This document shows positions 2,727 through 50,325 of a stretch of 53,405 nt of DNA, piece by piece. Position 1 is the stretch's first letter; every line of letters begins with the position of its first letter. Position numbers and translations under genes: made by a program. The stretch spans positions 1 through 53,405 of the IMG/VR virus record IMGVR_UViG_3300020593_000094; one strand, written 5' to 3'. The notes beneath the pieces are model-generated. The model worked only from the letters and a program-made list of their open reading frames with translations, made no database searches and was not told the DNA's origin. The DNA is from a virus. Lineage: Duplodnaviria; Caudoviricetes.

Positions 2727-5695
2727 CAGAGCGCCTCCACGGCGAACATGCGTTCGAGGAATTCCGGCTCGATCTGGCGCAGCTTGAGCTCGCGGGTGGC
2801 GCCGCCCTGCGCCGCGGTCTGGGTGAGCACCGAGGGAATGTTGTGGTCGCCGTTGAGGTAGATGACGTCGAAGCGGCTGTTCGCCGGGTCGATCGCCAGC
2901 TCCTCGCAGAGCCGGCTGATGCCCTCGTAGTCGAGGACCTCGCAGTCACGCCAGAGCACCAGGCAGCTTTCCCCGCCCGGCAGCGTGCCGGTGACCTTGA
3001 CGAAGCCCCGCTCCAGCTGCGCATCCACCTGGCCGACGCGCAGGCCGAGGAGGTAGTTGAAGGTCTCGACCAGGTCCACCGGGCGCCGCTCGAAGGCGCC
3101 GGCGGAGTCCACCGCGATGTCCATGGCGTAGTCGAACGGCTTGCGGAAATCGCCGATCGACAGCAACGAGGCGCGGCTCTCCACGTTCAGCATGTAGCGC
3201 AGCAGGTAGTCGTCCCGCGCGTGGTCCGGGAGGAAGCCGAACAGGTCGCCCACCGCCGGCGGCCGGGCCAGCTGGATGTTGTTCAGGGCGTCCTCGTAGC
3301 TCTCCAGCTTGAGCACCTTGAAGCAGCCGGACAGGCCGGTCTGCGGCGCCGTGGGCTCGCCATCCTTCCATTGCGCGGAGTAGATGGCCTTGATCGCCCG
3401 CGGCTTGGTCACGGTTTCGAAGTACTCGCCCTGCTCCACCAGGATGAAGCCGAGCTTGGGCTCCAGGCCGGCGGCCTGGGCCTCGCGCCGCAGCTCGATC
3501 ACCGCATGGGCGGTGGTGCCGCTGCCGCCGAAGTAGTCGAGCACCAGGGCCTGCTCGTCGGCCTGGACCGCCAGGGAGATGCACTTCTTCACCAGGTGGA
3601 TCGACTTCGGGAAGTCGAAGCGTTTCTCGCCGAGCATGTCGATGAGCAGGCTGTTGCCGTACTTGCCGGCGTCGAACTCGCCGCCGCTCCAGACGGTCTT
3701 GGGCACGGTCTGTTCATGGGTGACGAACAGGTCCCAGTCGTCGCCGACCTTGAGCGCCGCGACGCGCTCCAGGTTCTGGCGGATGGAGTCGAGGCCGAAG
3801 TTCCAGCGCCGCTCGACGCCGTCCTGGTCGATCGGCCACACCTCGATGCGCCCATCGGCCAGCAGGACGTTCCTGCCGGCCGGGTGGAAATCGTCGTCCG
3901 GCACCGTGCCGACGTCGACCACGCGGCCGTCCAGCACGTAGATCGGGTAGAACGACGGCCGCCGGTCGATGCGCCGGGAATTCTCGCCCCAGCGCCGCAT
4001 CTTGCGCGGGGTGCCGTTCTCTTCCAGGGTCCTGGCGATGCTCGACAACCCGTCGCGGGTGAGGAACAGCGCGTACTCGTGGGTACGGTTGAAGTTGCGG
4101 GTGATCGAGCCCTTGGGGTTGTGCACCACGGTGACCCGCGACAGCGTGTGCTCCGGCGCCACCTGCTCCATCACCTTGGACAGGTTGACCATCTCGGAGT
4201 CGTCGATCGCCACCGTCTTCACGCCGTCGAAGCGCAGCAGGCTCATACCCTTGATCAGGCGGTCCTGCATCAGGCTCATCCAGGACGAGTGCTTGTACTC
4301 GTTCTTGTAGAGGATGGGCGTGGAGTTGGTGTTGTAGGGCGGGTCTATATAGATGTACTTGACCTGCTCGCGGTAGCGCTCCTGCAGGAAGCTCAGGGCC
4401 TGGAAGTTGTCGCTGTGGACGAAGGTGCCGTTGACGCTGCCGTCCAGGTCGGCAATGGAGGCCAGCAACCGCGCCTTGAAGGCGGCGTCGTAGAGGCTGG
4501 TGTCGAGCATCCGGAAGGGGGCGTTGCGCAGGTCCTGCTCGGTGCCGTTCGCCGCGCCCGTCCAGAGCCCCAGCTGGCGCCACTGCTCCCACTGCCGGGA
4601 GTTGCCGACGATGGCCGGGTACAGCGCTTCCGGCACCCGGTCCAGGGTGATGCAGTAATGGCTGGAGACCACGAACTTCTTCTTCAGCCAGAGCTTCTTC
4701 TGGAACTCCTCCAGTTGCGCCAGGAAGTCGATCAGCTCCCGGGCGATGGCCCGCAGGCACTGCGTCATGCGCAGGCTCTTGTCGATATCGGCGATGGCCG
4801 TGGCGTTCTGCAGGTCGTCCAGGTGCAGGACTTCGTTCTTGATGTAGAAGTCCAGCTCGCCGCGCAGGAAACGCCCGAGGTCCTTGTGGATGAAGTAGTC
4901 GGCGGTGTTCTTGCTGGCGTAGTCGCTGAGGGTCTTCTCCAGCAGCGTGCGCTGCGGGTTCTTCTCGGTCGGCTCGCGCCTGGCCAGCTCGGCCCAGCGC
5001 GCCTTGACCGCCGCGTCGCCCAGCACGGTCTCGACGGCCTTGCCGATCAGCGTCTCCTGCTTGGTGCCCTTGGCCACCGGCCGGTATTCGAAGCGCAGCG
5101 TCAGCAGCGGCTGGCCGTCGGCGCCGTCGCCCTCCTCGATGGGCAGCAGCGCTTCGTCGTATTCGTGGCCGTGCTCGTCGGTGCGGCTCAGCGTCATCGG
5201 CTCGATCAGCGCGAAGCGGCGTTCCTTGTCGTTGTCCTTGCGGTTGTCCTTGGCGGTGTCGGCGGCCACCAGGCGGAAGTGCACGGCGCGGCCGTCTTCC
5301 AGGCGGAAGCTGTAGTTGGCGAAGTTCTCGCCGCTCTTGGTGTAGTACTGGTCCTTGTTGGCCCAGTGCAGCATGACTTCCTCGCCGGCGTAGGGGATGG
5401 CGTAGGTGTCCCCCTTGTAGCGGCGCTGGCTGACGAAGTCGCCGTTGTTGTAGTAACGGCTGAAGAAGGTCAGCAGGTGGCTGAAGACGGCGTTCTCGTG
5501 CTCGGCGCCATCGCTCCCCGCCAGGTGCTCCTGGATCTTGCGCGGCAGGCGCCGCTCCAGGTAGTCGTTGATCTCGCCGGCGCGGGCATTGAGGATGCGG
5601 TAGACGCCGAAGTCCAGCTCCGGGCGGTCGATCTGGAAGATCTCGCGCAGCTTGGCGACCAGGGCCTGGTGCTTGGGATTACGGATGTCGCTCAT
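2726..5695 (-). CDS. mod: Type III R-M methyltransferase subunit (Mod, beta-class N6-adenine MTase)
   Basis: IYIDPPYN catalytic motif precedes the DYFGGSGTT SAM motif. N-terminal ELDFGVYRI is typical of this Mod family. Start placed at ATG 5695 (MSDIRNP). Translationally coupled to res. Confidence 0.9.
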   Translation of the reverse strand: MSDIRNPKHQALVAKLREIFQIDRPELDFGVYRILNARAGEINDYLERRLPRKIQEHLAGSDGAEHENAVFSHLLTFFSRYYNNGDFVSQRRYKGDTYAIPYAGEEVMLHWANKDQYYTKSGENFANYSFRLEDGRAVHFRLVAADTAKDNRKDNDKERRFALIEPMTLSRTDEHGHEYDEALLPIEEGDGADGQPLLTLRFEYRPVAKGTKQETLIGKAVETVLGDAAVKARWAELARREPTEKNPQRTLLEKTLSDYASKNTADYFIHKDLGRFLRGELDFYIKNEVLHLDDLQNATAIADIDKSLRMTQCLRAIARELIDFLAQLEEFQKKLWLKKKFVVSSHYCITLDRVPEALYPAIVGNSRQWEQWRQLGLWTGAANGTEQDLRNAPFRMLDTSLYDAAFKARLLASIADLDGSVNGTFVHSDNFQALSFLQERYREQVKYIYIDPPYNTNSTPILYKNEYKHSSWMSLMQDRLIKGMSLLRFDGVKTVAIDDSEMVNLSKVMEQVAPEHTLSRVTVVHNPKGSITRNFNRTHEYALFLTRDGLSSIARTLEENGTPRKMRRWGENSRRIDRRPSFYPIYVLDGRVVDVGTVPDDDFHPAGRNVLLADGRIEVWPIDQDGVERRWNFGLDSIRQNLERVAALKVGDDWDLFVTHEQTVPKTVWSGGEFDAGKYGNSLLIDMLGEKRFDFPKSIHLVKKCISLAVQADEQALVLDYFGGSGTTAHAVIELRREAQAAGLEPKLGFILVEQGEYFETVTKPRAIKAIYSAQWKDGEPTAPQTGLSGCFKVLKLESYEDALNNIQLARPPAVGDLFGFLPDHARDDYLLRYMLNVESRASLLSIGDFRKPFDYAMDIAVDSAGAFERRPVDLVETFNYLLGLRVGQVDAQLERGFVKVTGTLPGGESCLVLWRDCEVLDYEGISRLCEELAIDPANSRFDVIYLNGDHNIPSVLTQTAAQGGATRELKLRQIEPEFLERMFAVEAL

Positions 5696-6120
5696 GACTT
5701 GGCCTTTTTCAATACCGCTGTATCTGTCCGGGTTCTGCGCCGGGAAAACGCACGCCGCGCCCGCAACCGGGTTCGCCACGGCGGGCTCGGACTATGCTCG
5801 GGATGCACGCGCCACCGGCCCGCGCCGCAGTGGCAGGGCACTTCGGCGGCAAACGACCGGGGTGGCAGGCGGAATCAGGATTCAGCTCCCTCTGCGATCC
5901 GCCAGGCAGTGAATCTCAACTGACTTGCGATTGGCAACCTGGGCCGCGCCCTGCCAATCCAAACTGTTGATCTTACAAGAGAAGCGAACCGTTCGCGACC
6001 GGTGGGGGGCGGGCTGCGCATAGGAGCAGGCGCGGGCCCCGCAGTGCCGGCATTGCGCCGGCCACCCCGGCGGACGGACGGTCGAGGACTCCCTCCAGCC
6101 CGGCCGTGCGGTGTCGGGAT

Positions 6121-18733: not shown

Positions 18734-21346
18734 TCAGCGGATGCGGTAGGCGAAATCGCCATCCTTGCCCAGGCGTACGGACAGGCTCTGCAGGGGCTTG
18801 CCCTGGGCCATCCGCTCGAGGACGCGCTGGGCCAGCTCCGGCATCAGCGTCCCGGACAGGATGTTGTCGATGTTGCGCGCGCCGCTGTCGACTTCGGTGC
18901 AGCGGGCGGCGATGGCCGGGACCAGCTCGGCGTCGAAGTTCAGGCTGGCCTGGTGGTTGCGCTCGAAGCGCTGGCGCAGGCGCTCCAGCTTGAGCGCGAC
19001 GATGCGCTGCAGCACGGCGTCCTGTACCGGGTAGTAGGGCACGATGCTCAGGCGGCCGAGGAAGGCCGGCTTGAACACCTGGTTGAGGGTGTCACGCAGG
19101 CCCTCGACGATCTCCGCCGGAGCGGGAGCGGCCTCGGTGCCCAGGCACCACTGCATGATCCGCTCGGTGCCGACGTTGGAGGTGAGGATGATCACGGTGT
19201 TGCGGAAGTTGATCTCGCGGCCCTCGCCGTCGTCCAGCACGCCCTTGTCGAAGACCTGGAAGAACAGCTCCAGCACGTCCGGGTGGGCCTTCTCCACCTC
19301 GTCCAGCAGCACCACGCTGTAGGGCTTGCGGCGCACCGCCTCGGTCAGCACGCCGCCCTCGCCGTAGCCGACGTAGCCCGGCGGCGAACCCTTGAGGCTG
19401 GAGACGGTGTGCGCCTCCTGGTACTCGGACATGTTGATGGTGATCAGGTTGCGCTCGCCGCCATAGAGGATGTCCGCCAGGGCCAGGGCGCTCTCGGTCT
19501 TGCCGACACCGCTGGGGCCGAGCAGGAGGAATACGCCGATGGGCTTGTTCGGGTCTTCCAGGCGCGCGCGGGAAATGCGGATACGCTTGCCGATCTCTTC
19601 CAGGGCGTGGTCCTGGCCAAGCACGCGCTCGCCGAGCAGGGATGGCAGGCGCTGTACGGTGTCGATCTCGTCGCGCAGCATCTTGCCCAGGGGGATGCCG
19701 GTCCAGGCGGAGATCACTTCGCCGATGGTGCCGCCGTCGACGCGGGCGTGAACCAATGGCGTCTCGCCCTGCACCTCGGTCAGCTCGGCACGCAATGCCG
19801 CGAGGTCCGCCCGCAGCGCCTCGCCCTCCCCCGCCTCCGCGCGGGCCTCCAATTCGTGCAGGCGCTTGACCAGTTCCAGCTCGCGCTGCCACTGCGCCTT
19901 CAGCACTTCCTCGCGCTGGCGCACCTGTTCCAGGGCGGCCTTCAGTTCGGCCAGGCGCGCTGCATGATCGGCGCCGCTGGCGTTCTCCTTTTCCAGCACG
20001 GAGATCTCGGCGCGCAGGTTGTCGCCTTCACGCAGGCAATCCTCCAGCGTGCCGGGCTGCGCCGCCTGCGCCAGGGCCACGCGGGCACAGGCGGTGTCGA
20101 GCACGCTCACCGCCTTGTCCGGCAACTGGCGACCGCTGAGGTAGCGGCTGGATAGGCGCACGGCCTGGACGATAGCATCGTCGAGCACGGCGACACGGTG
20201 GTGCGCCTGCATCTTCTCCAGCAGGCCACGGAGCATGTGGATGGCGCTGTCCTCGTCCGGCTCTTCCACCTTGACCACCTGGAAGCGGCGGGCCAGGGCG
20301 GCGTCCTTCTCGAAGTACTTCTTGTATTCGGCCCAGGTGGTGGCGGCGATGGTGCGCAGCTCGCCGCGGGCCAGCGCCGGTTTGAGCAGGTTGGCCGCAT
20401 CGTTCTGTCCGGCCTGGCCGCCGGAGCCGATCAGGGTATGGGCCTCGTCGATGAACAGGATGATCGGGTGCAGGCTGCGCTTGACCTCTTCGATCACCTG
20501 CTTGAGACGGTTCTCGAACTCGCCCTTGACCCCGGCGCCGGCCTGCAGCAGGCCCAGGTCGAGGGTATGGATGGCCACGCCCTGCAGCGGGGGCGGCACC
20601 TCGCCCTGGGCGATGCGCAGGGCCAGGCCTTCCACCACTGCGGTCTTGCCGACGCCGGCCTCGCCGGTGAGGATCGGGTTGTTCTGTCGGCGGCGGGTGA
20701 GGATGTCGACCATCTGCCGCACCTCAGCCTCGCGGCCCAATACCGGGTCGATGCAACCTTCGCGGGCGTTGCGCGTCAGGTCGATGGTGTACTGGTCCAG
20801 CGCTGGTGTCTTGCCGCGAGACGCGCCCGGGGCCGCAGTGACAGAGTCCGGTTGCGGCGCGGCCTGGGCCTGCTGCACCTCGCCGCTGGCCTCGGTGAGC
20901 GCCACCAGGTTCAGGCGCAGATCGTCGGGGTTGATCTTCTCCAGTTCGGGCGCGGAGGCCAGCGCCACCCGGCGCAGTTCGGCGTCGTCGAGCAGTGCCT
21001 GGAACAGGTGGCCGCTGCGGATCTGCGCCTCGCCGTATTCGATGGACGCCAGCACCCAGGCGCGCTCGATCAGCCGGGTGATGTGCGGCGACAGTGCCGG
21101 GGTACGGGTGTTACCGGTCTTGAACCCGGCCAGCGCCTGTTGCAGTTGGGCCTGCAGGCGGTCGGGCCGCACTTCGTAGTGACGCAGGATGGCCTGCAGA
21201 TCGTTGCCCTCGGCGTCCAGCAATTGCAGCAGCAGGTGTTCGATGTCGACGTCGTAGTGGCGCTCGGCGAGGCAGAGTCCGGCTGCCCCTTCGGTGGCGC
21301 TGCGGCAGCTGTCGTTGAGCTTGGCGAACAGGGATTTCAGGTTCAC
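18734..21346 (-). CDS. clpV: T6SS AAA+ ATPase ClpV (TssH)
   Basis: Two AAA modules (GEAGVGKT, GPSGVGKT), RRRQNNPIL, GSPPGYVGYGEGG. GTG start overlaps the tssG stop. Confidence 0.96.
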   Translation of the reverse strand: MNLKSLFAKLNDSCRSATEGAAGLCLAERHYDVDIEHLLLQLLDAEGNDLQAILRHYEVRPDRLQAQLQQALAGFKTGNTRTPALSPHITRLIERAWVLASIEYGEAQIRSGHLFQALLDDAELRRVALASAPELEKINPDDLRLNLVALTEASGEVQQAQAAPQPDSVTAAPGASRGKTPALDQYTIDLTRNAREGCIDPVLGREAEVRQMVDILTRRRQNNPILTGEAGVGKTAVVEGLALRIAQGEVPPPLQGVAIHTLDLGLLQAGAGVKGEFENRLKQVIEEVKRSLHPIILFIDEAHTLIGSGGQAGQNDAANLLKPALARGELRTIAATTWAEYKKYFEKDAALARRFQVVKVEEPDEDSAIHMLRGLLEKMQAHHRVAVLDDAIVQAVRLSSRYLSGRQLPDKAVSVLDTACARVALAQAAQPGTLEDCLREGDNLRAEISVLEKENASGADHAARLAELKAALEQVRQREEVLKAQWQRELELVKRLHELEARAEAGEGEALRADLAALRAELTEVQGETPLVHARVDGGTIGEVISAWTGIPLGKMLRDEIDTVQRLPSLLGERVLGQDHALEEIGKRIRISRARLEDPNKPIGVFLLLGPSGVGKTESALALADILYGGERNLITINMSEYQEAHTVSSLKGSPPGYVGYGEGGVLTEAVRRKPYSVVLLDEVEKAHPDVLELFFQVFDKGVLDDGEGREINFRNTVIILTSNVGTERIMQWCLGTEAAPAPAEIVEGLRDTLNQVFKPAFLGRLSIVPYYPVQDAVLQRIVALKLERLRQRFERNHQASLNFDAELVPAIAARCTEVDSGARNIDNILSGTLMPELAQRVLERMAQGKPLQSLSVRLGKDGDFAYRIR

Positions 21347-21816
21347 AGGCGGACCCCATCGTAAGGAATGCGGAACAGCGCGCAGCGCGAGGGTTCGGCG
21401 TGCGCGCCGGGACGTTTCAGCCAGCCGAGCCGGCCCAGGGACAACTCGCCGCCACGGCCCAGGGTGGCCAGGGGGACCGCCTCGCGGCGCAGGCGCGGGG
21501 CGACCTCGAAATCCAGCTCGACGCCCAGGTAGAAGCGCACCAGCTCCACCAGGCGCTGGTGGTCGGCGTGCCCAGGCAGGAAGCGCCGGTAGTCCTCCAG
21601 CGCCAGCGGCCCCAGCTCGATGCGCACGCAGGACTGGTAGTCCCAGGTACGCCGACCGGTGACCGCGCTCTGCCCGAGCACGGCATTGGCGCGGCCCAGG
21701 CGCGTGCGTTGCGACGTTTCGATGGCCAGCCAGCGGCCGTTGAAGGGACGCACGCGGATCGGCAGAGCGAAGTAGAAGCCGAGCATGGCCTCCAGGTTCA
21801 GCGGGTTGCGCTGGCG
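21343..21816 (-). pseudogene. tssG: 5'-truncated tssG (C-terminal half of the T6SS baseplate subunit)
   Basis: Frame reads RQRNPLNLEAMLGFYF...LG..AVTG.RTWDYQSCVRIELGPL...Y.RFLPG...LG.LGWL. Upstream of about 21816 the DNA is phage coding sequence. Confidence 0.85.
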
Positions 21817-22529
21817 TGGGCGTCCTGGATGGTTTTGAGGTTCACACCAGCGTCCTGCAGCTGCTTCTGCAGCTTCTCGACGACCTGGGCGCCCTGCTCG
21901 GTGGTCTCGATCGTGAGGCCATCGACCAGGAGTTTGCGGAGTGCATCAGCCATGTCATGGCCTCCTTTCGGTTTCTGCGCAGGGGGTTTCGCAGCGGGGC
22001 TGCGCGCGTCCCCGATGCGTAGTTGCTCGCCGCCTCGGGCCTTGTCGACCAGGGCGAGGTGGTTCATTCGCATATCCGTGACGATGGCGTCGTAGGGCTC
22101 ACCATCGGGGGTGACGCCGTCCTGAAATACGACGGAGGCTTCAAGCCCCATGGACAGCTCACGCTTGCCGGCCTCGTAGTCGCGGATCGTGTTGGCATCC
22201 ATCAGCACCAGCGGGACCTGGACAAAGTCGCCGTCGCGAAGGACCTCGGCGCCGGTGTTCCCGACAGCCAGCTCCTTCCAGTTGTCGGCGTTCACCTCGC
22301 CGTGGTGGTCGTTGGTCATCGGGCGGAAGGCGTAGGAGCGCATGGCGTCCTCAGCGAACACCGCCTCCGGCGGCCGGTAGACGCGGACCAGAGGCATCTC
22401 TGGTTTGCCGACCTCGGAACCGAGGTAGTCCTGCACGCCGATGCGCGCCACCTTGGCGACGGCCACGAGGTATCCGTCAGTGGTCCGGCGAACCCCGGAC
22501 ACCGACAGGGAGTGGTCGAGAAGGAGCAT
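21798..22529 (-). pseudogene. DUF2213-family phage head protein (protease/scaffold-like), 3'-truncated
   Basis: T.DGYL...A.VAR.G.Q.Y, P.TNDH, GKRELS.G, NHLALVDKARGG. The ORF stops just after the coiled-coil region begins, using a TGA supplied by tssG DNA. Confidence 0.8.
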
Positions 22530-22531
22530 TG

Positions 22532-24328
22532 CTATTCCTCGTTGAGGTCGTCCGACCAGCTCGGGGGGATCTCTTCGAAGATCTCCGGGCCAAGCTCGAT
22601 GACGCCGCGGTACGGTTCGACCTGGTCAAGGTCGACGCTGCCGGGCTGGTAGGTGAAGGTGATGTGCGGCTGGTAGTCCGGCCAATCCCAGGAGGCGCCG
22701 GCGTCGAGAATGCCCTGGTGTCGCCAGGTCAGCTCGGTGTTGTTGAACAGCAGGACAATGGCGCCCTCCCCGAACTGCTCGACCATGCGGGGGCCGCCGG
22801 CGGAACTGGTCAGGTTGCCGTTCGGCTTGTTGGTCCAGGCCTGAGCGACTGCCATCCAATCGACCGGAGTCTTGCTGTAGGCGACGGTGACATGCAGGTC
22901 TTCGGCAGGAAGCGTGGTCTCGAAGCCCTGGGCCTTCGCCCAGTCAATGATCGCGCCAGTGTTCAGCACCTTGCGGGACACGTAGAGCGTGCGCGCTGCG
23001 GCGTCCTGCAGCTTGGTGGTGCCACCCTCCTCGTCCCGCTCGTCTTCCGGCACCTCGGAGCCGAACTCCTCCAGTGCCGATTCCAGGCCTGGCATGACGC
23101 TGTTCTCCACCAGCAGGGTCTCGGCGGCCTTGCTGAGCGCGTCTGCGGGGAAGAGCTTGGTCTCGGAGATGGTCTTGATGGTCTCGGCAGTGGTCTTGCC
23201 GATGTCCGCCCGCTCCTTCGCCGTGGTCTGCCAGAGGCTGTTCCAGATGTAGTGTATTTCCGGGGGGCGGCTTCCCAGCGCAGAGCGCACCAGGCACTCG
23301 TCCAGCGCTGACATGGCCGGCGTGATGTCGAGCTCTTGGCTGGACTGGATGCGGTCGTAGTAGTTGCGCAGGTCAGCTTCGCCGGTGGAGTTCATTCCGG
23401 CGGGCGATTGGCTGAGCATGCGGGTGGCTGGTATGTCAGCGGCTCCGCATCCGGCCTGCATGAAGCGGTCCATGATGTCCGGCAGCGTGCTGAAGTTGGC
23501 AGACTTGCTGCTGTACTCCTCCTCCTTGTCCAGCAGCAGGCAGCCATTGATGCCCTTGGCCGTGGCAGCCAGGCGGAAGCGCTCCAGCAGCTTCTTCTCG
23601 TACTCCTTGTCGTTCATGCCCTGCATGAAGTCAGGGATGCTGATGATGTCGACCTTCGCCTCGAAGATCAGGCTGGCCACGTTGGCCATGGTGCTGTCGA
23701 TCTGCTGGATAGCCTCGAATACGGCCTGCAAGACCGAATCGCCCCAGCCGAACTGGTTGCCGCTGGCCAGGTCCTGGTCGGGGATGTCGGCGCCGGTGAA
23801 GATCACCAAGCGGGACGGGTGAATCTCGATCGCGCTGCCGCCAAGTCGGTAGGCCTTGGGCTTGCCGTAGTTCGGCGACATGACGTCGCGGTCCTGCTCG
23901 GTGGCCGAGAGGTCGCGCCGGCTCATGACCGTCAGGTACTTGATGCCGCCGGCCTTGATGCGATCGGGATTCAGCGGCTTGCTGGTATCGATATCGCCGG
24001 TACCGATGAAGATCGCGGCACCGCCCCAGAGGCGCGCCTTGATCAGCGCCTCCATGGTGCGGGCCTTGACCTGCAGGCGCTTCTCCTCGGCCTCGATCTT
24101 CTCGATCTGCTGCTTGCTGGCCTGCCATGCCCGCCAGCGCCGGGTGGCGTCCTTGGCGGGGATGTCGACGACCTTGCGGGGGAACCAGGCGCCACGGTAG
24201 GCGTTGAGCAGCTGCTCGTCGGTGAGCATCACCGGCGCGTAGAAGCTGCCGGCGGCCTTGTCGCGCTCCGTGCCCAAGTTGGCCACGAAGTTGACCAGCT
24301 TGTCGCTGAGGAAGCGGACTACGCCCAT
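22532..24328 (-). CDS. Phage portal protein (DUF1073 type) with C-terminal Acb1-like 2H phosphoesterase domain
   Basis: Portal part: KVVDIPAKDATR.W, IHPSRL, WGDSVL, AADIPATRMLSQSPAGMNSTGEADLRNYYD. After an acidic linker, an extra ~150 aa carries two HxT motifs (LHVTVAYS, PHITFTY). Confidence 0.88.
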   Translation of the reverse strand: MGVVRFLSDKLVNFVANLGTERDKAAGSFYAPVMLTDEQLLNAYRGAWFPRKVVDIPAKDATRRWRAWQASKQQIEKIEAEEKRLQVKARTMEALIKARLWGGAAIFIGTGDIDTSKPLNPDRIKAGGIKYLTVMSRRDLSATEQDRDVMSPNYGKPKAYRLGGSAIEIHPSRLVIFTGADIPDQDLASGNQFGWGDSVLQAVFEAIQQIDSTMANVASLIFEAKVDIISIPDFMQGMNDKEYEKKLLERFRLAATAKGINGCLLLDKEEEYSSKSANFSTLPDIMDRFMQAGCGAADIPATRMLSQSPAGMNSTGEADLRNYYDRIQSSQELDITPAMSALDECLVRSALGSRPPEIHYIWNSLWQTTAKERADIGKTTAETIKTISETKLFPADALSKAAETLLVENSVMPGLESALEEFGSEVPEDERDEEGGTTKLQDAAARTLYVSRKVLNTGAIIDWAKAQGFETTLPAEDLHVTVAYSKTPVDWMAVAQAWTNKPNGNLTSSAGGPRMVEQFGEGAIVLLFNNTELTWRHQGILDAGASWDWPDYQPHITFTYQPGSVDLDQVEPYRGVIELGPEIFEEIPPSWSDDLNEE

Positions 24329-39238: not shown

Positions 39239-39955
39239 ATGAAGCCCATCATCTTCGACACCGAGACCACCGGCACCGACCACCAGACCGACCAGATCAT
39301 CGAGGCGGCCTGGCTGGAGCTCGCCGATAACCCGAGCCAGCTCGACGAGATCCGCTCACCCGAAGAACTTCCGTTCTATCACGAGCGCTTCAAGCCGACG
39401 GTTCCGATCAGCCTCGGCGCCCAGGCCGTGCATCACATCATCTGCGAGGACCTGGTTGGCTGCCGCGAGTCGAAGGAGTTCGCCCTGCCCGCCGGCCAGA
39501 TCCTGATGATCGGCCACAACGTCGACTTCGACTGGCGCATGGCCGGCGAAAACCCGGCTATCAAGCGCATCTGCACCCTGGCGCTGAGCCGCTTCCTGTT
39601 CCCGGACAAGGACAGCCACACCCAGTCCGCCATGATGTACCTGATCGGCCGCCGCTTCGGCCGTGAGGCATGGGCGCGCGACCTGCTTCGCAACGCCCAC
39701 GCCGCGCTCGACGATGTCCGCAACTGCGCCATCGTGTTGCGATTCCTGCTCCGAATCGCAAAGGAGTCCGGCCACTCGGTCGACACCTGGGAAGAGGTCC
39801 ACGCGCTGAGCGAGAAGGCGCGCATCCCGACGGTCATGCCCTACGGCAAGCACAAGGGCACGCCGATCAACCAGGTTCCGAGCGACTACAAGGCGTGGCT
39901 CCTGCGCCAGCCCGACGTCGATCCCTACCTCGTCCAGGCGCTACGCGCGCGCTGA
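39239..39955 (+). CDS. DnaQ-family 3'-5' exonuclease (exonuclease X-like)
   Basis: FDTETTG, GHN..FD, AH.ALDD; C-terminal MPYGKHKG......VP.DY..WLL. Confidence 0.9.
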   Translation: MKPIIFDTETTGTDHQTDQIIEAAWLELADNPSQLDEIRSPEELPFYHERFKPTVPISLGAQAVHHIICEDLVGCRESKEFALPAGQILMIGHNVDFDWRMAGENPAIKRICTLALSRFLFPDKDSHTQSAMMYLIGRRFGREAWARDLLRNAHAALDDVRNCAIVLRFLLRIAKESGHSVDTWEEVHALSEKARIPTVMPYGKHKGTPINQVPSDYKAWLLRQPDVDPYLVQALRAR

Positions 39956-40040
39956 TCCGCCACCAGGGCGCCGCAACGGCGCCCAGCACCACGAGCCGAC
40001 CCCATGGAATGCAAGATCACCCCCTCACGCCGGGCGGAGG

Positions 40041-40184
40041 ATGCTGCGCGCCATCGCCTGGGGCTCCTGCTCCTGGTACGGCTACCAGACCAACCGCGAC
40101 ACCCGCTATGCGGCCTTCATCGGCTGCATGGTGCGGGTGGACCAGCAGTGGATCCCACGCAACGAGCTGCGCGTCCTGCAGTGA
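40041..40184 (+). pseudogene. Short ORF or possible gene remnant
   Basis: Frame MLRAIAWGSCSWYGYQTNRDTRYAAFIGCMVRVDQQWIPRNELRVLQ has strong GC3 codon usage but a poorly spaced RBS; out of frame with ATG 40004. Confidence 0.4.
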
Positions 40185-40250
40185 GCAACCTCCTGCCGCT
40201 TCCACGAGGCGGCAGTGGGATGCGACGAGCATCAACACCCCCTTGGTATT

Positions 40251-40274
40251 GCCCGGCCCCGGCCGGGCCTTTTT
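40251..40274 (+). terminator. Intrinsic terminator upstream of the DGR cassette
   Basis: GCCCGGC-CCCG-GCCGGGC followed by CTTTTT. Confidence 0.6.
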
Positions 40275-40302
40275 ACTCCCAGTCGAGCACAAGGACAGCA
40301 CC

Positions 40303-40788
40303 ATGACCGAGATCATCACCAGCATTTCCGCTGCAGCACTTCCGGCCCGCGGCCAGCCCCTGGCCGGCGGCACCTTCATCGAGCGCTACTGGCTGAACAA
40401 CCAGGAGCGCGCCCTGATCCTCCTCGGCGCCGAGCACGACCTCTTCGGCGCCTACGGCGAATATGGCCAGGACATCGCCGGCGCCGGCCACTACGTCGAC
40501 GGCGAGGCGAACACCCGCGCCATGGCCGAGGCCGGCAGCGAGCTCGCCAAGAAGGCCCTGGAGCTGGCCGCCCACATCCCGGCCTGTCTGGAGGGCCAGT
40601 TGATCATGGCGGCCAAGCACGCCGGCCTGATCACCGACCTGCGCGAGGACCGCTGCTACTGGCTCAGCACGCAGCGCTCCGCCTACCGCGCCTACGGCAT
40701 GGGCTTCGAGGATGGCTGGCAGCACTACAACGGCAAGCACGCCGAGCTGCTCGTCCGCCCCGTCCGCAGCCTGCCCATCCTTCAGTGA
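40303..40788 (+). CDS. DGR target protein 1 (DUF1566/CLec-type, 161 aa)
   Basis: ATG 40303 after AAGGA; P..GQP..GG.F, DG..NTRAM, YW.STQ...AY...F..G......K.....VRPVR; C-terminus encoded by VR1. Confidence 0.9.
   Translation: MTEIITSISAAALPARGQPLAGGTFIERYWLNNQERALILLGAEHDLFGAYGEYGQDIAGAGHYVDGEANTRAMAEAGSELAKKALELAAHIPACLEGQLIMAAKHAGLITDLREDRCYWLSTQRSAYRAYGMGFEDGWQHYNGKHAELLVRPVRSLPILQ
40670..40770 (+). repeat. DGR variable repeat VR1
   Basis: 101-bp ungapped match to 42077-42177 with 11 differences, all at template adenines. Confidence 0.95.
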
Positions 40789-40906
40789 TCCACTGATTCA
40801 TTCCTTCTCCAGCAGGCGATTCGCGGGACCGCGCCCACCGCGGTCAGACCAGAAGCATGCCGGGCAAGCGCCGGCCGCCTGCGCCCTATTCCGTTGAGGA
40901 CCTCCC

Positions 40907-41506
40907 ATGCAAGCGAAGCAACTGCCCGCGCTGAAGATCGGGCGCCTGAACCACCTGACCATCAACTTCCACGGGGCCGACCTGGTCGCCGAACCGTTCC
41001 AGGCCGCCATGCTCAGCACCATCGAGACGGCCAGCAGCGTTCCGCCGCTCGGCAACTACTGGCCCGGCGAGGGCGGCCACAATGTCGGCCTGATGCGCGG
41101 CGAGAATGGCGGCCGCGACTACTACCTGATCGTCGCCAGCGGCCCGGCGGCGGAGGTTCGCGCAGCCTATGGCGGCCACGGTCACGAGACCGAGAGTGCC
41201 GACAGCGCCAGCGACGGCCTGGCGAATACCCGGGCCCTGCTGGCCGACAGCAAGGCGCACCCTGCCGCGAAATGGGCCTCGGAATACACCGCCGACGGCC
41301 ACAGCGACTTCTACCTGGGCGCGCGGCGCGAGAACCAAATCGCCGAGGCGATCGCTCCCGAGCTCTTCAGCAAGGGCTACCACTGGTCGAGCACGCAGCG
41401 CTCCGCCGACGACGCCTACCTCATGGACTTCGAGGATGGCTGGCAGCACTTCTACGACAAGTACGCCGAGCTGCTCGTCCGCCCCGTCCGCAGAAAATAC
41501 ATCTAG
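40907..41506 (+). CDS. DGR target protein 2 (DUF1566/CLec-type, 199 aa)
   Basis: P..G.YWPGEGG, DGLANTRALL, HPAA.WA, DGHSDFYL..RRE, HWSSTQ...VRPVRR; C-terminus encoded by VR2. Confidence 0.92.
   Translation: MQAKQLPALKIGRLNHLTINFHGADLVAEPFQAAMLSTIETASSVPPLGNYWPGEGGHNVGLMRGENGGRDYYLIVASGPAAEVRAAYGGHGHETESADSASDGLANTRALLADSKAHPAAKWASEYTADGHSDFYLGARRENQIAEAIAPELFSKGYHWSSTQRSADDAYLMDFEDGWQHFYDKYAELLVRPVRRKYI
41394..41494 (+). repeat. DGR variable repeat VR2
   Basis: 101-bp ungapped match to 42077-42177 with 9 differences, all at template adenines. Confidence 0.95.
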
Positions 41507-41563
41507 TCCTTCAATCCTTCATTCATGGGCGCGCCAGCGCCCTCGCTTTTCGAGGTAGCCAGG

Positions 41564-41920
41564 ATGGCGCTGCACACCGAACTCGAGATCCACCGCAGTG
41601 CCGAGGAACTCCTCGGCGTGGTCCTTGCCCTGGTAAGGCACATCCCGCGGGACATGAAGCAACTCATCGGCGGGAAGCTCCGCGACGAGAGCCTGCAGGT
41701 CCTGGTGCTGATTGGCCGGGCGAACATGTCCCGGAACAAGCGCCAGCACCTGGATGATCTCCTCGAAAGCATCTGGATGATCAATCAGCTGCTGCGCGCG
41801 ATGGTGAACGAGCGATTCATCAGCATCCCGCAGCAAGCCAGGGCCATGAAGCTGACCGCTTCCATCGGCCGCCAGGCCAACGCATGGAAGAAAGCCACCG
41901 CAACCGCGCCCGTTGCTTGA
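41564..41920 (+). CDS. avd: DGR accessory variability determinant (four-helix bundle)
   Basis: 118-aa basic helical protein (L.IH....EL......LVRHIPRD.K..IG.KL....L.....I.RAN...IGRQ..AWKK) between target and template repeat. Confidence 0.85.
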   Translation: MALHTELEIHRSAEELLGVVLALVRHIPRDMKQLIGGKLRDESLQVLVLIGRANMSRNKRQHLDDLLESIWMINQLLRAMVNERFISIPQQARAMKLTASIGRQANAWKKATATAPVA

Positions 41921-42076
41921 GGGTTACGGCCCTCCTGCCTGCGCGCCAAATCTGGTCGTGCCGCTGCCCGGTTGGGCACCGCCATGCGCACCCACAGGGA
42001 CCACCGGCTACCGGCGAGGCCTGGCGCAGTTTCTCCGTTGAGCAATCGGCGGGGCGACGTGGATAGCACGATAGGT

Positions 42077-42177
42077 CGCAGCGCTCCGCCAACAACGCCT
42101 ACAACATGGACTTCGAGGATGGCTGGCAGAACAACAACGACAAGAACGCCGAGCTGCTCGTCCGCCCCGTCCGCAGA
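42077..42177 (+). repeat. DGR template repeat TR
   Basis: Contains 7 AAC triplets in the target reading frame and 27 adenines in total; lies between avd and the RT remnant. Confidence 0.95.
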
Positions 42178-42178
42178 T

Positions 42179-42475
42179 TTGACGGTTGCCCCTTTCACCT
42201 TCGAGGACCTGGCCCAGGCCTACTTCGACTGCCGCCGCCACAAGCGAAACACCAACAGCGCGCGGCGCTTCGAGCTGAACCTCGAGGAGAACCTGCTGGA
42301 CCTGCACGACGAGCTGCCGGCCTTCCAGGTGAAGCCCGCTGGCAAGGGCTTCTTCCACATCGTCGACACCGCCAGCGGCAAGGTCTGCGGCTTCCGGCGC
42401 GGCCACCAGCAGGCGCTCGACCGCGCCGAGGTGCTCACCATTCGCAAGCGCGACGACCTGGGGACGGAAGGCTGA
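42179..42475 (+). pseudogene. DGR reverse transcriptase N-terminal remnant (to ~42316) fused in frame to the 3' part of an unrelated small phage gene
   Basis: FTFEDLAQAYFDCRRHKRNTNSARRFELNLEENLLDLHDEL is RT domain 0. It is followed by PAFQVKPAGKGFFHIVD... and a stop; no YxDD core in the cassette. Confidence 0.85.
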
Positions 42476-42789
42476 TGGCAAAGACTCAGCAGGAGCGCTC
42501 CGCCAAGGCTGCGGCGAAGCGCGCAGAGGTCGGCGAGGAGGAACTGCGGCACAGGGTTCGCCCCGGCGTGCTGGCCAAGCTGGAGGACCTGATGCAGTGG
42601 GGCGGCATCGAGCAGAAAGCCGAGGCCGTGCAACTGCTGATTCTCAATGTGCATGCCCTGGGGCCGGACGGCGCCGCGCAGCTCCTCACCGTTCCGCGCC
42701 ACGAAATCGCGATCAGCGAAAGCGTGGCGCGCAGGCTTGAAGCGGAGGGCCGGCGCGAGGCTGCCGCCCTCGACCGGAGCGACGAGTGA
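42475..42789 (+). CDS. Hypothetical phage protein
   Basis: MAKTQQERSAKAAAKR...; ATG overlaps the upstream TGA. Confidence 0.75.
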   Translation: MAKTQQERSAKAAAKRAEVGEEELRHRVRPGVLAKLEDLMQWGGIEQKAEAVQLLILNVHALGPDGAAQLLTVPRHEIAISESVARRLEAEGRREAAALDRSDE

Positions 42790-42896
42790 TCGGTGCCGCC
42801 GGACAGGCGCATCGATAAGCCTCCCCGAGACACTCCTTACGCCGGATAGGCGATGCCACGGCACGGCTTATCGACGGATATCTACCTGGAGAAACC

Positions 42897-43985
42897 ATGA
42901 CGCCAGCCCACCAGATACTGGTCGGCGACTGCCTGGAGCTGCTCCGGGCGATGCCCGACGAATCGGTGCACTGCTGCATCACCAGCCCACCTTACTTCGG
43001 CCTGCGCGACTACGGCATGGCCGGCCAGATCGGCCTCGAACAGACGCCCGCCGAGTTCGTGTCGCGCCTGGTCGAGGTCTTCCGCGAAGTCCGCCGTGTG
43101 CTGCGCGACGACGGCACCCTCTGGGTGAACATGGGCGATAGCTACGCCAGTGGTGGCCGAGGCGGTGGCGGAACCTTCATGGCCGAGCGTGGTGACGGTG
43201 CCTGGAAGGGCCGCAGCGAGGCCTCCGGCTGGCGATCTGCGCCGCAAGGCCTCAAGCACAAGGACTTGGTCGGCATCCCCTGGCGGCTGGCGTTCGCCCT
43301 GCAGGACGACGGCTGGTATCTGCGCCAGGACATCATCTGGCACAAGCCAAACCCCATGCCTGAGAGCGTGCGCGACCGCTGCACCAAGGCTCACGAATAC
43401 CTGTTCCTGCTCAGCAAGTCGCCGCGCTACTACTTCGACCGCGAAGCGATTGCAGAGCCCCTGGCGCCAGCATCTGTTGCACGTCTGGCCCAGCCCGGCT
43501 GGGAAGACCAGCAAGGCTCGGCCAGGGTGCCGGGGAAAGCCAACGGAGCCATGAAGGCCGTGGGCGGCAGCCGGAGCAGGCGCTACAGCTTCGCCCGGGA
43601 GACCAAGAGTACCGCCGGAACCCACGGCCAGAAGGCGCAGCACCGGCCTGACCGCCCCGACATCGACTACAGCGCCACGCGGAACAAGCGCAGCGTCTGG
43701 TCGGTGCCAACCGGCGGTTTCCGCGGTGCGCACTTCGCAACATTCCCGCCCGACCTGATCCGCCCGTGCGTCCTCGCCGGCGCGCCGCGCGACGGCCTGA
43801 TCCTCGACCCATTCGGCGGCGCCGGCACCACCGGCCTTGTCGCCATGCAGGAGGGGCGCCGCTCGGTGCTCCTCGAACTCAATCCCGAATATGCCGCGAT
43901 CGCTCGCACCCGCCTGGCTGCTGCCTGGCTGGAGGGCGCCGCGCAGATGGATGTCCTTCTGGACCACAAGGAGCCCGCCGCATGA
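42897..43985 (+). CDS. Orphan beta-class amino-DNA methyltransferase (N4-C/N6-A)
   Basis: TSPPYFGLRDY, HFATFP, LDPFGGAGTT. Confidence 0.92.
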   Translation: MTPAHQILVGDCLELLRAMPDESVHCCITSPPYFGLRDYGMAGQIGLEQTPAEFVSRLVEVFREVRRVLRDDGTLWVNMGDSYASGGRGGGGTFMAERGDGAWKGRSEASGWRSAPQGLKHKDLVGIPWRLAFALQDDGWYLRQDIIWHKPNPMPESVRDRCTKAHEYLFLLSKSPRYYFDREAIAEPLAPASVARLAQPGWEDQQGSARVPGKANGAMKAVGGSRSRRYSFARETKSTAGTHGQKAQHRPDRPDIDYSATRNKRSVWSVPTGGFRGAHFATFPPDLIRPCVLAGAPRDGLILDPFGGAGTTGLVAMQEGRRSVLLELNPEYAAIARTRLAAAWLEGAAQMDVLLDHKEPAA

Positions 43986-48960: not shown

Positions 48961-49000
48961 CTCATGCGGCGCCGGTACGCCGGCGCATTGAGGCATTGCT

Positions 49001-49213
49001 ATGCGAAAAGAACTCATCAAGATCAGCGAGTTCCAGCGGCGCCGCTGGGGCACCAATGGAACACCACTGTCCGGCCAGGCAATCCGCAATCAGCTCAGGG
49101 ACGGCATTCTCCCGGGCGAACGGATCGGCAAACTCTGGTTCGTCGACTGGACGGCGTTCAGCAAGTCGACCAGCAACGACCTGGTCGCCATGGTCCTTCG
49201 AGGAGCAGCGTGA
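49001..49213 (+). CDS. xis: Putative excisionase
   Basis: 70-aa basic HTH-like protein (G.LPGERIGKLWFVD) overlapping the integrase start. Confidence 0.75.
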   Translation: MRKELIKISEFQRRRWGTNGTPLSGQAIRNQLRDGILPGERIGKLWFVDWTAFSKSTSNDLVAMVLRGAA

Positions 49214-50325
49214 TGTCGCCTCGTCCACGGAACAAGGCCAACAAGGGGCTCCCCGAGAACCTCTACCTGGACTCAAGGCGCGGGACCTACCGCTACAGAA
49301 GGCCGACGGATGGAAAGTGGTTCCCCTTTGGCACCGACCGGGCCAAGGCAATCAACGCGGCCAAGCAGTTGAACATGGAGTTCATTGGCGGGGCCGACCT
49401 GGTGTCCAAGGTGAAAGGCGGATCCACCGACCTGTTCGTCGACTTCATCGACCACTACAAGGAGAAAATCCTCCCGCCGCGCGAACTGGCGAAGGGCACG
49501 CTCGATCTGTACGAAGTGCGGCTCCGGCAATTCAGGAAGGCCTGGCCCGCCCATGCGGTCAACGAGATCACCATCCGCATGATCGCGGACCTGCTCGACA
49601 GACTGACACCCCGGGCAGCAAACCAGGCCCGGGCACTTCTGGTCGACATCTTCAACCACGCCGTGGCGAAAGGCCTGTGCCCGGACAACCCAGCCATCTG
49701 CACCATTCCGAAGATCGAGAAGAAGCAGCGCAAACGGCACACTGTAGAGGGGCTTCGGGCAATTCGCGAGAAGGCGCCAGCCTGGCTGCAGAACGCGATC
49801 GACCTGGCGCTGATCACCGCCCAGCGCCGGACCGACATCCTGGCCATGCGATTCGACGACGTTCGCGACGGGTTTCTGTACGTTGTCCAGCAGAAGACGG
49901 CCAAAGCCAGCGACGCGGCCTGGATTCGCTTCCGGGTGACGCCCGAGCTCCAGACCGTGCTCAGCAGGTGCCGGGACAACATCCCGTCCCCCTTCCTGAT
50001 TCACCGCAGGCCAGAACGGAAAAAGCAAAAGCAGGCCGAGCAGAAGGAGCACTGGACGAAGATCGAGGAGCGCTACCTGACCAGGGCCTTCAAGGAAGCC
50101 AGGGACACGGCAGGCTGTTATGCGGGGTGGAGTGAAGAGGAGATGCCGGGCTTCCATGAGGTCAGGGCGCTGTCGCTGCACCTGTACAAGAAAGCCGGAA
50201 AGGATGGGCAGAAGATCGCCGGCCATGCCAGCGAGGATATGACGAAAAACTATCAGCGCGACCACGAAGAAGTGGTCTGGGCGGACGCGATTCCGGACCT
50301 GGATATCAGCGAATTCGCCCGATAG
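49213..50325 (+). CDS. int: Prophage tyrosine integrase (lambda-like)
   Basis: LP.NLY arm-binding domain; catalytic R (AQRRTDI), H..R (FHEVRAL), GH, Y (MTKNY). Confidence 0.93.
   Translation: MSPRPRNKANKGLPENLYLDSRRGTYRYRRPTDGKWFPFGTDRAKAINAAKQLNMEFIGGADLVSKVKGGSTDLFVDFIDHYKEKILPPRELAKGTLDLYEVRLRQFRKAWPAHAVNEITIRMIADLLDRLTPRAANQARALLVDIFNHAVAKGLCPDNPAICTIPKIEKKQRKRHTVEGLRAIREKAPAWLQNAIDLALITAQRRTDILAMRFDDVRDGFLYVVQQKTAKASDAAWIRFRVTPELQTVLSRCRDNIPSPFLIHRRPERKKQKQAEQKEHWTKIEERYLTRAFKEARDTAGCYAGWSEEEMPGFHEVRALSLHLYKKAGKDGQKIAGHASEDMTKNYQRDHEEVVWADAIPDLDISEFAR

What the first reader, a model, noticed from the sequence alone, without database searches (positions are those of the whole stretch)
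40303..42316. Two-target diversity-generating retroelement in the prophage early region
Seen: three ungapped 101-bp copies. VR1 (40670-40770) and VR2 (41394-41494) differ from TR (42077-42177) at 11 and 9 positions, and every difference is at a TR adenine (e.g. AAC to TAC/CGC/GGC/CAC in VR1; AAC to GAC/CTC/CAC/TTC/TAC in VR2). TR has 27 A in 101 nt, so this bias is not neutral drift. Order is target1-target2-avd-TR-RT. Known: adenine-specific mutagenic retrohoming is the DGR hallmark (Bordetella BPP-1 paradigm). Inference: one template independently diversified two different proteins.
Basis: partly seen in the sequence, partly recalled or inferred. Interest (0 to 1): 0.9.

Follow-up and report, generated by a model that had tools for sequence, protein, structure and literature searches.

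The report
Two-target DGR that lost its RT
This is a real diversity-generating retroelement with two variable target genes, of a type common in Pseudomonas prophages, but here a 1.3 kb deletion has removed almost all of its reverse transcriptase gene, so it is probably a frozen relic.

Summary
VR1 (40670-40769), VR2 (41394-41494) and TR (42077-42177) align without gaps. All 10-11 and 9 differences fall on TR adenines.

The cassette has most DGR parts:
- two paralogous small C-type-lectin-fold target proteins
- a bAvd gene
- the Rfam RT-15 RNA abutting the TR
- a VR-specific downstream motif and hairpins

The stated "RT" is only a 46-codon stub. Compared with collinear relatives (L083, L004, L006), about 1292-1299 bp are missing. 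The junction shows 9-bp microhomology at 42314-42322. It fuses the RT start in frame to the tail of a small downstream ORF. No RVT_1 domain exists anywhere in the 53 kb record. Contigs from three studies bridge the junction without a difference.

The family is widespread. Of 103 related loci, 85 have two VRs and 7 have three or more. Of 87 assessable loci, 79 keep a full RT and 8 are defective. Two-target DGRs with short DUF1566-type targets are already in print.

Verdict: a degenerate member of a known kind. The VRs are most likely relics of past diversification. Supply of an RT in trans is not excluded.

The parts
40251..40275 (+). Terminator-like GC hairpin plus T run just upstream of target gene 1
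   Evidence: Pattern scan. Consensus match only.
40303..40788 (+). Target gene 1 (161 aa), a soluble single-domain C-type-lectin-fold protein of phrog_4245
   Evidence: ORF. phrog_4245 E 7.7e-26. AF2 pLDDT 96. VIA-align Z 13.4 to the Lcl C-terminal domain 8q4e_A. No hydrophobic segment.
40670..40769 (+). VR1, the variable repeat at the 3' end of target 1
   Evidence: 10 differences from the TR, or 11 with the boundary base. All are at TR adenines.
40827..40845 (+). Inverted repeat (7-bp stem, 5-nt loop) 57 nt after VR1
   Evidence: Read from the sequence and present in the MFE fold. Not uniformly conserved in relatives.
40907..41506 (+). Target gene 2 (199 aa), a paralogue of target 1 with a disordered N-terminal ~42 residues followed by the CLec domain
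   Evidence: 38% identity to target 1, E 3e-20. phrog_4245 E 3.1e-29. AF2 pLDDT 83.8. Foldseek top hit 8q4e_A, E 8.4e-5.
41394..41494 (+). VR2, the variable repeat at the 3' end of target 2
   Evidence: 9 differences from the TR, all at TR adenines.
41527..41542 (+). GC hairpin (6-bp stem, 4-nt loop) 32 nt after VR2
   Evidence: The stem is conserved and the loop varies in the relatives printed.
41564..41920 (+). avd accessory gene (118 aa)
   Evidence: PF22296 bAvd, 45.9 bits against a cut-off of 40, E 8.6e-12. 98% identical to the avd of L083.
41904..42078 (+). RT-15 structured RNA motif (RF03018) between avd and the TR
   Evidence: 152.3 bits against a gathering score of 82, E 1.6e-37, full length. 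Found in the same position in 17 of 17 related loci tested.
42077..42177 (+). TR, the template repeat (27 A in 101 nt)
42179..42316 (+). Remnant of the RT gene (about 46 N-terminal codons)
   Evidence: Aligns to the first ~46 residues of the Haboob and Cruim01 RTs and then diverges. tblastn covers RT residues 2-42 only. No Pfam or NCBIfam hit.
42314..42322 (+). Deletion junction with 9-bp microhomology
   Evidence: Left-side homology to L083 runs to 42322 and right-side homology starts at 42314. 1292 bp of L083 are absent. Contigs of runs X1, X5 and X6 bridge it with 0 differences.
42317..42475 (+). C-terminal 53 codons of an 89-aa ORF that lies downstream of the RT in relatives, here fused in frame to the RT stub
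42475..42789 (+). Next gene of the operon (104 aa, phrog_5439, unknown function). It marks the resumption of collinearity.

Best explanation
The region is a member of a large family of DGR cassettes carried in the early-left operon of lambda-like Pseudomonas prophages. The standard layout is: target 1, target 2, avd, RT-15 RNA, TR, RT. In intact members the TR transcript is copied by the RT with misincorporation at adenines, and the cDNA replaces the 3' ends of both target genes. This varies about ten Asn/Asp codons on each of two small, soluble C-type-lectin-fold binding proteins. That mechanism is inferred from the BPP-1 paradigm. In this copy a ~1.3 kb deletion between short direct repeats removed the RT from about codon 47 onward, together with the first ~36 codons of the next small ORF. 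The deletion is shown. The two VRs therefore record diversification that happened before the deletion and are now most likely frozen (inferred). The prophage is itself a remnant. Its late operon stops after the portal gene and a DUF2213 gene and abuts a truncated host tssG gene.
For: All differences between the VRs and the TR are at TR adenines. bAvd scores above its Pfam cut-off. RT-15 RNA matches at full length and abuts the TR. Both targets have a CLec fold: pLDDT 96 and 83.8, Z 13.4 to 8q4e_A, and Z 6.8 and 6.6 to the DGR targets Mtd (1yu0) and TvpA (2y3c). No RVT_1 match exists in the whole 53,405-base record. RT homology stops after residue ~46. The window is collinear with L083, L004 and L006 on both sides of a 1292-1299 bp gap, with microhomology at the junction. 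The RT of L083 carries RVT_1 (63.5 bits) and its best solved relative is 8ub7_A at E 2.5e-36. Contigs of three studies (X1, a possible source; X5; X6) bridge the junction with 0 differences. X5 carries identical VR1 and VR2 and X6 an identical VR1; X6 does not cover VR2. Run X7 holds a relative whose sequence continues into the RT at 42322; its VR2 differs from the window at 8 positions, all TR-adenine sites. A cluster relative of target 2, P0005, differs at 1 residue outside the VR and 7 inside it. Family context: of 103 loci, 85 have two VRs and 7 have three or more. Among 178 distinct TR-VR pairs there are 2059 mismatches at A against 142 at other bases, and 137 pairs have none at other bases. 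Of 87 assessable loci, 79 have a full RT and 8 a defective one. The genome holding L098, which has the same kind of RT stub, has no other RT of this family at E<=1e-5, yet its VRs also differ from its TR only at A. The prophage is truncated.
Against: There is not one non-adenine difference between the TR and either VR (0 among the 74 non-A positions of the 101-nt TR, for each VR), and the target 1, target 2 and avd ORFs are all intact. So the deletion is recent, or the parts are still under selection, which would also fit continued use with an RT supplied in trans. The host genome is not available, because the record is a virus record only. A second DGR RT in the same cell therefore cannot be excluded, and one related genome (G002) does carry two RTs of this family, 80% identical to each other. 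Contigs cannot show rare VR variants.
Confidence: 0.85

Rival explanations
1. The cassette is a non-autonomous but still active DGR. It keeps every cis part (targets with their downstream motifs, avd, RT-15 RNA, TR and 139-145 nt after the TR) and uses the RT of a related prophage in the same cell.
For: The segment kept after the TR (42178 to 42316-42322) is about as long as the 140-nt spacer that BPP-1 needs in cis after its TR (passages of 10.1101/2023.10.23.563531). An independent lineage, L098 (avd 71% identical), lost its RT at the same left boundary, keeping RT residues 2-42, but with a different right side. Two RTs of this family co-reside in genome G002. There are no non-A TR-VR differences and all ORFs are intact.
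Against: The L098 genome has no second RT of this family at E<=1e-5. VR1 and VR2 are identical in the contigs of an independent study, X5, and VR1 also in X6. Synonymous-site variation in RT codons 1-45 is not clearly suppressed: 0.85-1.0 bits against roughly 0.6-1.3 elsewhere. RNAalifold on the post-TR segment gave -2.4 kcal/mol and no compensatory pair. So an RNA function for the retained stub is not shown.
Confidence: 0.1
2. The missing RT is an assembly artefact (a collapse or chimera at a short repeat), and the real phage has an intact RT.
For: The junction lies in a 9-bp microhomology. The record is a metagenome-type viral contig rated 64% complete.
Against: Separate assemblies from three studies cross the junction with 0 differences: X1 record 7 and X5 record 16 span 42148-42900, and X6 record 23 spans 42147-42402. 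The fusion is in frame. The intact form appears only in the more divergent X7 relative.
Confidence: 0.03
3. The three repeats are ordinary paralogous sequence and the adenine bias is chance or a composition effect.
For: Targets 1 and 2 are paralogues.
Against: The chance that all differences fall on A is 8e-8 and 2e-6. The third copy is non-coding, A-rich and flanked by avd, RT-15 and an RT stub. The same pattern holds in 178 TR-VR pairs of relatives.
Confidence: 0.01

Closest known systems
Two-target DGR cassettes of Pseudomonas phages Haboob (OR683404), Cruim01 (PP179333) and the P. citronellolis prophage L083
   Same: Same order of parts: target 1, target 2, avd, RT-15, TR and RT start. They share about 70-91% DNA identity up to window 42316-42322. 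They have two VRs with A-specific mismatches and lie in the same early-operon position.
   Different: Those have a full RT of 358-386 aa. The window keeps only ~46 codons.
Bordetella phage BPP-1 DGR (mtd-avd-TR-brt)
   Same: Adenine-specific TR-to-VR differences, an Avd accessory protein, a VR at the C-terminus of a CLec-fold protein, and a GC-rich repeat end followed by a hairpin after the VR. Features taken from passages of PMC3240598. Fold match to Mtd, Z 6.8.
   Different: BPP-1 has one target, and it is a tail-fibre protein. Its structured RNA (the spacer, Rfam RT-10) lies after the TR. Here there are two small, soluble, non-structural targets, the structured RNA (RT-15) lies before the TR, the RT ORF starts 2 nt after the TR, and the RT itself is deleted.
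'Category d' / CLec2 DGR targets (DUF1566, DUF823, Fib_succ_major), such as the Legionella DGR (Wu et al. 2018, PMC5758913)
   Same: Short proteins consisting of little more than a DUF1566-type CLec domain with a C-terminal VR. The best fold match is the Legionella Lcl C-terminal domain.
   Different: Pfam Lcl_C scores are below the cut-off: 17.1 and 21.4 bits against 34.9. There is no lipoprotein or signal sequence, whereas the paper describes LdtA as a surface lipoprotein.
Vibrio cholerae 1311-69 DGR with one TR and two VRs in two DUF1566 ORFs (Yan et al. 2019, PMC6642488)
   Same: One TR, and two VRs at the C-termini of two separate DUF1566-type ORFs (passages).
   Different: A different host and lineage. 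That element was reported with its RT.

Membership tests
Diversity-generating retroelement (DGR) | TR-VR repeat pair(s) whose differences are confined to TR adenines | tested here: met
   10-11 of 10-11 differences (VR1) and 9 of 9 (VR2) are at TR adenines; P 8e-8 and 2e-6.
Diversity-generating retroelement (DGR) | An intact DGR-clade reverse transcriptase gene in the cassette | tested here: not met
   Only RT residues ~1-46 remain. No RVT_1 anywhere in the record. A 1292-bp deletion relative to L083. Orthologous loci do have the RT: 79 of 87.
Diversity-generating retroelement (DGR) | VR at the 3' end of a target ORF, within a C-type-lectin fold | tested here: met
   The VRs end 19 nt (VR1) and 12 nt (VR2) before the end of the stop codons. 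AF2 models with Z 13.4 to 8q4e_A, 12.6 to 4eps, 6.8 to Mtd and 6.6 to TvpA.
Diversity-generating retroelement (DGR) | Accessory gene (avd) | tested here: met
   PF22296 bAvd, 45.9 bits against a cut-off of 40. NCBIfam DivGenRetAVD scores only 41.2 bits against a cut-off of 80.
Diversity-generating retroelement (DGR) | Target-recognition elements after the VR: a GC-rich repeat end, a VR-specific sequence absent from the TR, and a hairpin | tested here: inconclusive
   A GC-rich 3' end is shared by all three copies. In the sequences printed, a short AT-richer motif follows both VRs but not the TR, in the window and in relatives (by eye, not counted). VR2 has a 6-bp GC hairpin 32 nt downstream. 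The VR1 hairpin is 57 nt downstream and not uniformly conserved. Loops do not fit the GRNA consensus reported for phage DGRs. No functional test.
Diversity-generating retroelement (DGR) | Ongoing mutagenic retrohoming | not testable with these tools
   Only contigs were available. They show the same VR1 and VR2 in X5 and the same VR1 in X6; X6 does not cover VR2. Contigs cannot show rare variants.
Rfam RT-15 RNA (RF03018) | Score at or above the gathering threshold over the full model | tested here: met
   152.3 bits against 82, model positions 1-192.
Pfam Lcl_C / DUF1566 (PF07603) | Score at or above the gathering threshold | tested here: not met
   17.1 bits (target 1) and 21.4 bits (target 2) against 34.9. 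The fold nevertheless matches the solved Lcl C-terminal domain best.

The most novel reading that the evidence does not exclude
This prophage DGR family does not vary tail fibres. It varies two signal-less, soluble CLec proteins encoded in the early-left (recombination/integrase) operon, which would act inside the cell as variable binders in phage-host or phage-phage conflict, for example against defence proteins or competing phages. RT-less copies such as this one would then be either fixed specificities kept after the diversifier was lost, or non-autonomous cassettes served in trans by a co-resident prophage RT. The second option is hinted at by two independent RT losses at the same boundary, each keeping ~140 nt after the TR.
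Probability: 0.2. Interest if true: 0.65.

Novelty: new member of a known kind. Interest (0 to 1): 0.3.

Why it matters
As a DGR this one is ordinary. Two-target cassettes with DUF1566-type targets are catalogued, and this family is abundant in Pseudomonas prophages.

Three things are worth keeping.
1. The element lacks its RT. Automated or by-eye calls that stop at the RT start would wrongly list it as an active DGR.
2. About 9% of family members (8 of 87) have lost the RT while keeping their targets. Target homologues also occur in phages with no DGR at all (D3 orf68; the pair in vB_Pae_U7). So the CLec proteins have a function that outlives diversification.
3. RT-15, an orphan Rfam motif, is placed here as the avd-TR intergenic RNA of a DGR family, in 18 of 18 cassettes tested (the window plus 17 loci).

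The function of these non-structural phage DGR targets remains an open question.

Tried and rejected
- I looked for an RNA function of the retained RT stub. Per-codon synonymous entropy over 79 distinct RT genes showed no clear suppression in codons 1-45. RNAalifold on 72 post-TR segments gave only -2.4 kcal/mol and no two-sided compensatory change. It did predict a pairing of the TR 3' end with a stretch 53-61 nt downstream, but those bases encode a conserved peptide, so this says nothing either way.
- An exact search for the 41-nt junction found nothing in IMG/VR (the window's own record may be left out of that scan) and nothing in the JGI metagenome contigs. The junction's spread is therefore known only from Logan contigs.
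- A megablast search of the phage collection found only one partial match. The more sensitive blastn search was needed.
- No promoter-like site was found in 39900-43000.
- The fusion ORF as an exact protein is not in the protein collection under three tried starts. Gene callers may use another start.
- A paper search for the PDB code 8UB7 found nothing. That this chain is the BPP-1 bRT is my recollection only.
- Supplementary tables of the DGR surveys were not available. They may already list this Pseudomonas family.
Full report
**Observation.**
The TR (42077-42177) holds 27 A in 101 nt. VR1 (from 40670) differs from it at 11 positions and VR2 (from 41394) at 9. Every one of these is a TR adenine.

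The last VR1 difference (TR 42177) is the first base beyond the VR1 repeat, so 10 are secure for VR1. The chance that all differences fall on adenines is 8.2e-8 for VR1 and 2.2e-6 for VR2. In the target reading frame, 26 of the 27 adenines are at codon position 1 or 2. There are seven AAC codons, which is the usual DGR design.

**Parts present.**
- **Targets.** Target 1 (40303-40788, 161 aa) and target 2 (40907-41506, 199 aa) are paralogues: 38% identity, E 3e-20. Both belong to phrog_4245, of unknown function. Their Pfam Lcl_C (DUF1566) hits are below the cut-off: 17.1 and 21.4 bits against 34.9.
- **Target fold.** AlphaFold models built on alignments of 49 and 44 family sequences are confident: pLDDT 96.0, and 83.8 with residues 1-42 of target 2 disordered.
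- **Fold matches of the target 1 model.** It matches the Legionella Lcl C-terminal domain (8q4e_A: Z 13.4, rmsd 2.2 Å over 114 residues), a Bacteroides fimbrial protein (4eps: Z 12.6) and Bd2740 (Z 9.7). Many C-type lectin domains follow, including the DGR targets Mtd (1yu0, Z 6.8) and TvpA (2y3c, Z 6.6). Foldseek agrees.
- **Target location.** Neither protein has a hydrophobic segment. The highest 19-residue Kyte-Doolittle means are 1.15 and 0.73, so they are probably soluble and intracellular. That is an inference.
- **avd.** The gene at 41564-41920 passes the bAvd Pfam cut-off (45.9 bits against 40).
- **RT-15 RNA.** The avd-TR spacer is a full-length match to Rfam RT-15 (41904-42078, 152 bits against 82). 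RT-15 sits in the same place in 17 of 17 related loci tested. [quoted passage not shown] It speculates that other RT motifs serve other DGRs (passages of PMC5737381).
- **Downstream of the VRs.** In the sequences printed, a short shared motif follows both VRs but not the TR, in the window and in relatives (by eye, not counted). A 6-bp GC hairpin lies 32 nt after VR2. A 7-bp inverted repeat lies 57 nt after VR1.
- **Comparison with published hairpins.** For phage DGRs, hairpins 4-34 bp after the VR with GRNA loops have been reported (passages of PMC3240598). The loops here do not fit that consensus.

**The RT is missing.**
The ORF that starts 2 nt after the TR aligns with the RTs of phages Haboob and Cruim01 for about 46 residues. 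It then diverges and stops at 42475. tblastn with the Haboob RT covers residues 2-42 only. A search of the whole 53,405-base record with RVT_1 finds nothing.

The window is collinear with L083 (a Pseudomonas citronellolis prophage, avd 98% identical) over 40190-42322 and again over 42314-42782. 1292 bp of L083 are absent between these stretches. L004 and L006 give 1299 and 1297 bp. The two flanks share a 9-bp microhomology at 42314-42322. The deletion joins RT codon ~46 in frame to codon ~37 of an 89-aa ORF that follows the RT in the relatives. The RT of L083 carries RVT_1 (63.5 bits). Its closest solved relative is the 328-residue chain 8ub7_A at E 2.5e-36. I recall that chain to be the BPP-1 RT but could not verify it.

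**The deletion is not an artefact.**
Logan contigs of three studies cross the junction with no difference. X1 (a possible source of the record) and X5 (an independent landfill metagenome) each have a contig over 42148-42900. X6 (a labelled organism) has one over 42147-42402.

X5 carries VR1 and VR2 identical to the window. X6 carries an identical VR1 but does not cover VR2. Run X7 holds a relative that differs at several percent of positions. Its contig runs on at 42322 into RT-coding sequence, and its VR2 differs from the window's at 8 places, all of them TR-adenine sites. A 90% cluster relative of target 2 (P0005) differs at one residue outside the VR and at 7 inside it, all at Asn or Asp codons of the TR. 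So close kin with an RT have diversified, while the RT-less form is the same wherever it was seen. Contigs cannot exclude rare variants.

**Family context.**
An avd-based search returned 80 IMG/VR loci and 21 genome loci. Twenty of the 21 genome loci are from Pseudomonas (incl. Metapseudomonas); one is a Moraxellaceae MAG.
- **VR number.** With two phage records added there are 103 loci. Six have no detectable VR, 5 have one, 85 have two and 7 have three or more.
- **Adenine specificity.** Over 178 distinct TR-VR pairs (the window's two included) there are 2059 mismatches at TR adenines against 142 at other bases. 137 pairs have no non-adenine mismatch, 30 have one or two, and 11 have three or more.
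- **RT state.** Of 87 distinct loci with enough sequence after avd, 79 have a full RT and 8 a defective one. Ten duplicates and 6 loci that were too short were set aside.
- **Targets without a DGR.** Target homologues exist without any DGR. D3 orf68 lies just after cI, and phage vB_Pae_U7 has the pair without an annotated avd or RT.
[quoted passage not shown] Half of the DUF1566-type targets are short single-domain proteins (passages of PMC5758913). 271 of 948 DGRs have multiple VRs, and Pseudomonas is among the richest genera (passages of PMC6642488). Supplementary tables were not available, so I cannot say whether this exact family is listed.

**Genomic setting.**
The plus-strand operon reads, in order:
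- exonuclease, RecT, an SbcC-like ATPase and a DnaQ-like exonuclease
- the DGR cassette
- a phrog_5439 gene, two DNA methyltransferases and an NA37 nucleoid protein
- the integrase at 48964-50325

The minus-strand late operon has RusA, small and large terminase, a portal gene fused to an Acb1 domain, and a DUF2213 gene. It then abuts the C-terminal half of a tssG gene and a type VI secretion cluster. So the prophage has lost its head, tail and lysis end. CheckV rates the record 64% complete.

**Mechanism and rivals.**
The best reading (0.85) is a relic. An intact two-target DGR diversified both CLec proteins, and then a microhomology-mediated deletion removed the RT. The absence of any non-adenine TR-VR difference and the intact ORFs show the loss is recent or the parts are still selected.

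The main rival (0.1) is use of an RT supplied in trans.
- **For it.** The stretch kept after the TR (139-145 nt) is as long as the 140-nt spacer BPP-1 needs in cis (passages of 10.1101/2023.10.23.563531). L098 lost its RT at the same left boundary independently. Genome G002 holds two RTs of this family.
- **Against it.** The L098 genome has no second RT of this family. The VRs are identical across studies. Neither synonymous-site nor covariation tests show an RNA element in the stub.

An assembly artefact (0.03) and chance (0.01) are contradicted.

**Verdict.**
The repeat observation is confirmed. This is a degenerate new member of a known and common DGR family, and its interest is modest.

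Noticed in passing
window 22532-24328 (-): The portal protein (Phage_portal_3, E 4.8e-106) carries a C-terminal Acb1 anti-CBASS domain (PF23474, E 3.5e-42) in one 598-aa ORF.
   Followed up: no
window 21343-22529 (-): The prophage late operon ends after a DUF2213 gene and directly abuts an ORF that matches only positions 181-304 of the 304-position TssG profile. ClpV, TssJ, TssK, DotU and two TssM-like genes follow. It looks as if a deletion removed the phage structural genes and part of a type VI secretion cluster.
   Followed up: partly
window ~41377-41410 (target 2 gene, start of VR2): In run X6 a short contig covers only this stretch and is flanked on both sides by the same ~28-nt sequence, which looks like a CRISPR repeat; that reading is my recollection. 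In run X1 a separate 61-nt contig covers the same stretch with one difference, but no flanks were listed for it. This is possibly a CRISPR spacer against the target-2 gene (tables 7 and 8).
   Followed up: no
L098:4765 (Pseudomonas aphyarum) against window 42316-42322: A distant family member (avd 71% identical) lost its RT at the same left boundary, keeping RT residues 2-42, but with unrelated sequence to the right. Three other groups of loci keep only RT residues from ~319-328 onward (L010/L012/L013, L030, L065). Breakpoints seem to cluster, and I have no explanation.
   Followed up: partly
L008:4511-4616: In this locus the TR has only 16-17 adenines, against 33-34 in its sister L007, and it differs from VR2 at just two edge positions. 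It looks as if the TR had been overwritten by a VR copy.
   Followed up: no
L020, L043, L049, L054, L077, L085 (and possibly L003): These loci carry a third target gene with its own VR, 0.6-2.7 kb further upstream. Its differences from the TR are also adenine-specific.
   Followed up: partly
L104 (phage D3 orf68) and L105 (phage vB_Pae_U7): Homologues of the target proteins occur in phages with no avd or RT annotated nearby. In D3 the gene lies directly downstream of cI.
   Followed up: partly
window 41904-42078 and 17 related loci: The Rfam motif RT-15, which has no assigned function, is the avd-TR intergenic RNA in every cassette tested (18 of 18). It lies upstream of the TR, whereas the BPP-1 spacer (RT-10) lies downstream of it.
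   Followed up: partly
window 2726-5779 (-): A 1017-aa ORF with an N6/N4 DNA methylase domain lies beside the type VI secretion cluster, outside the prophage.
   Followed up: no
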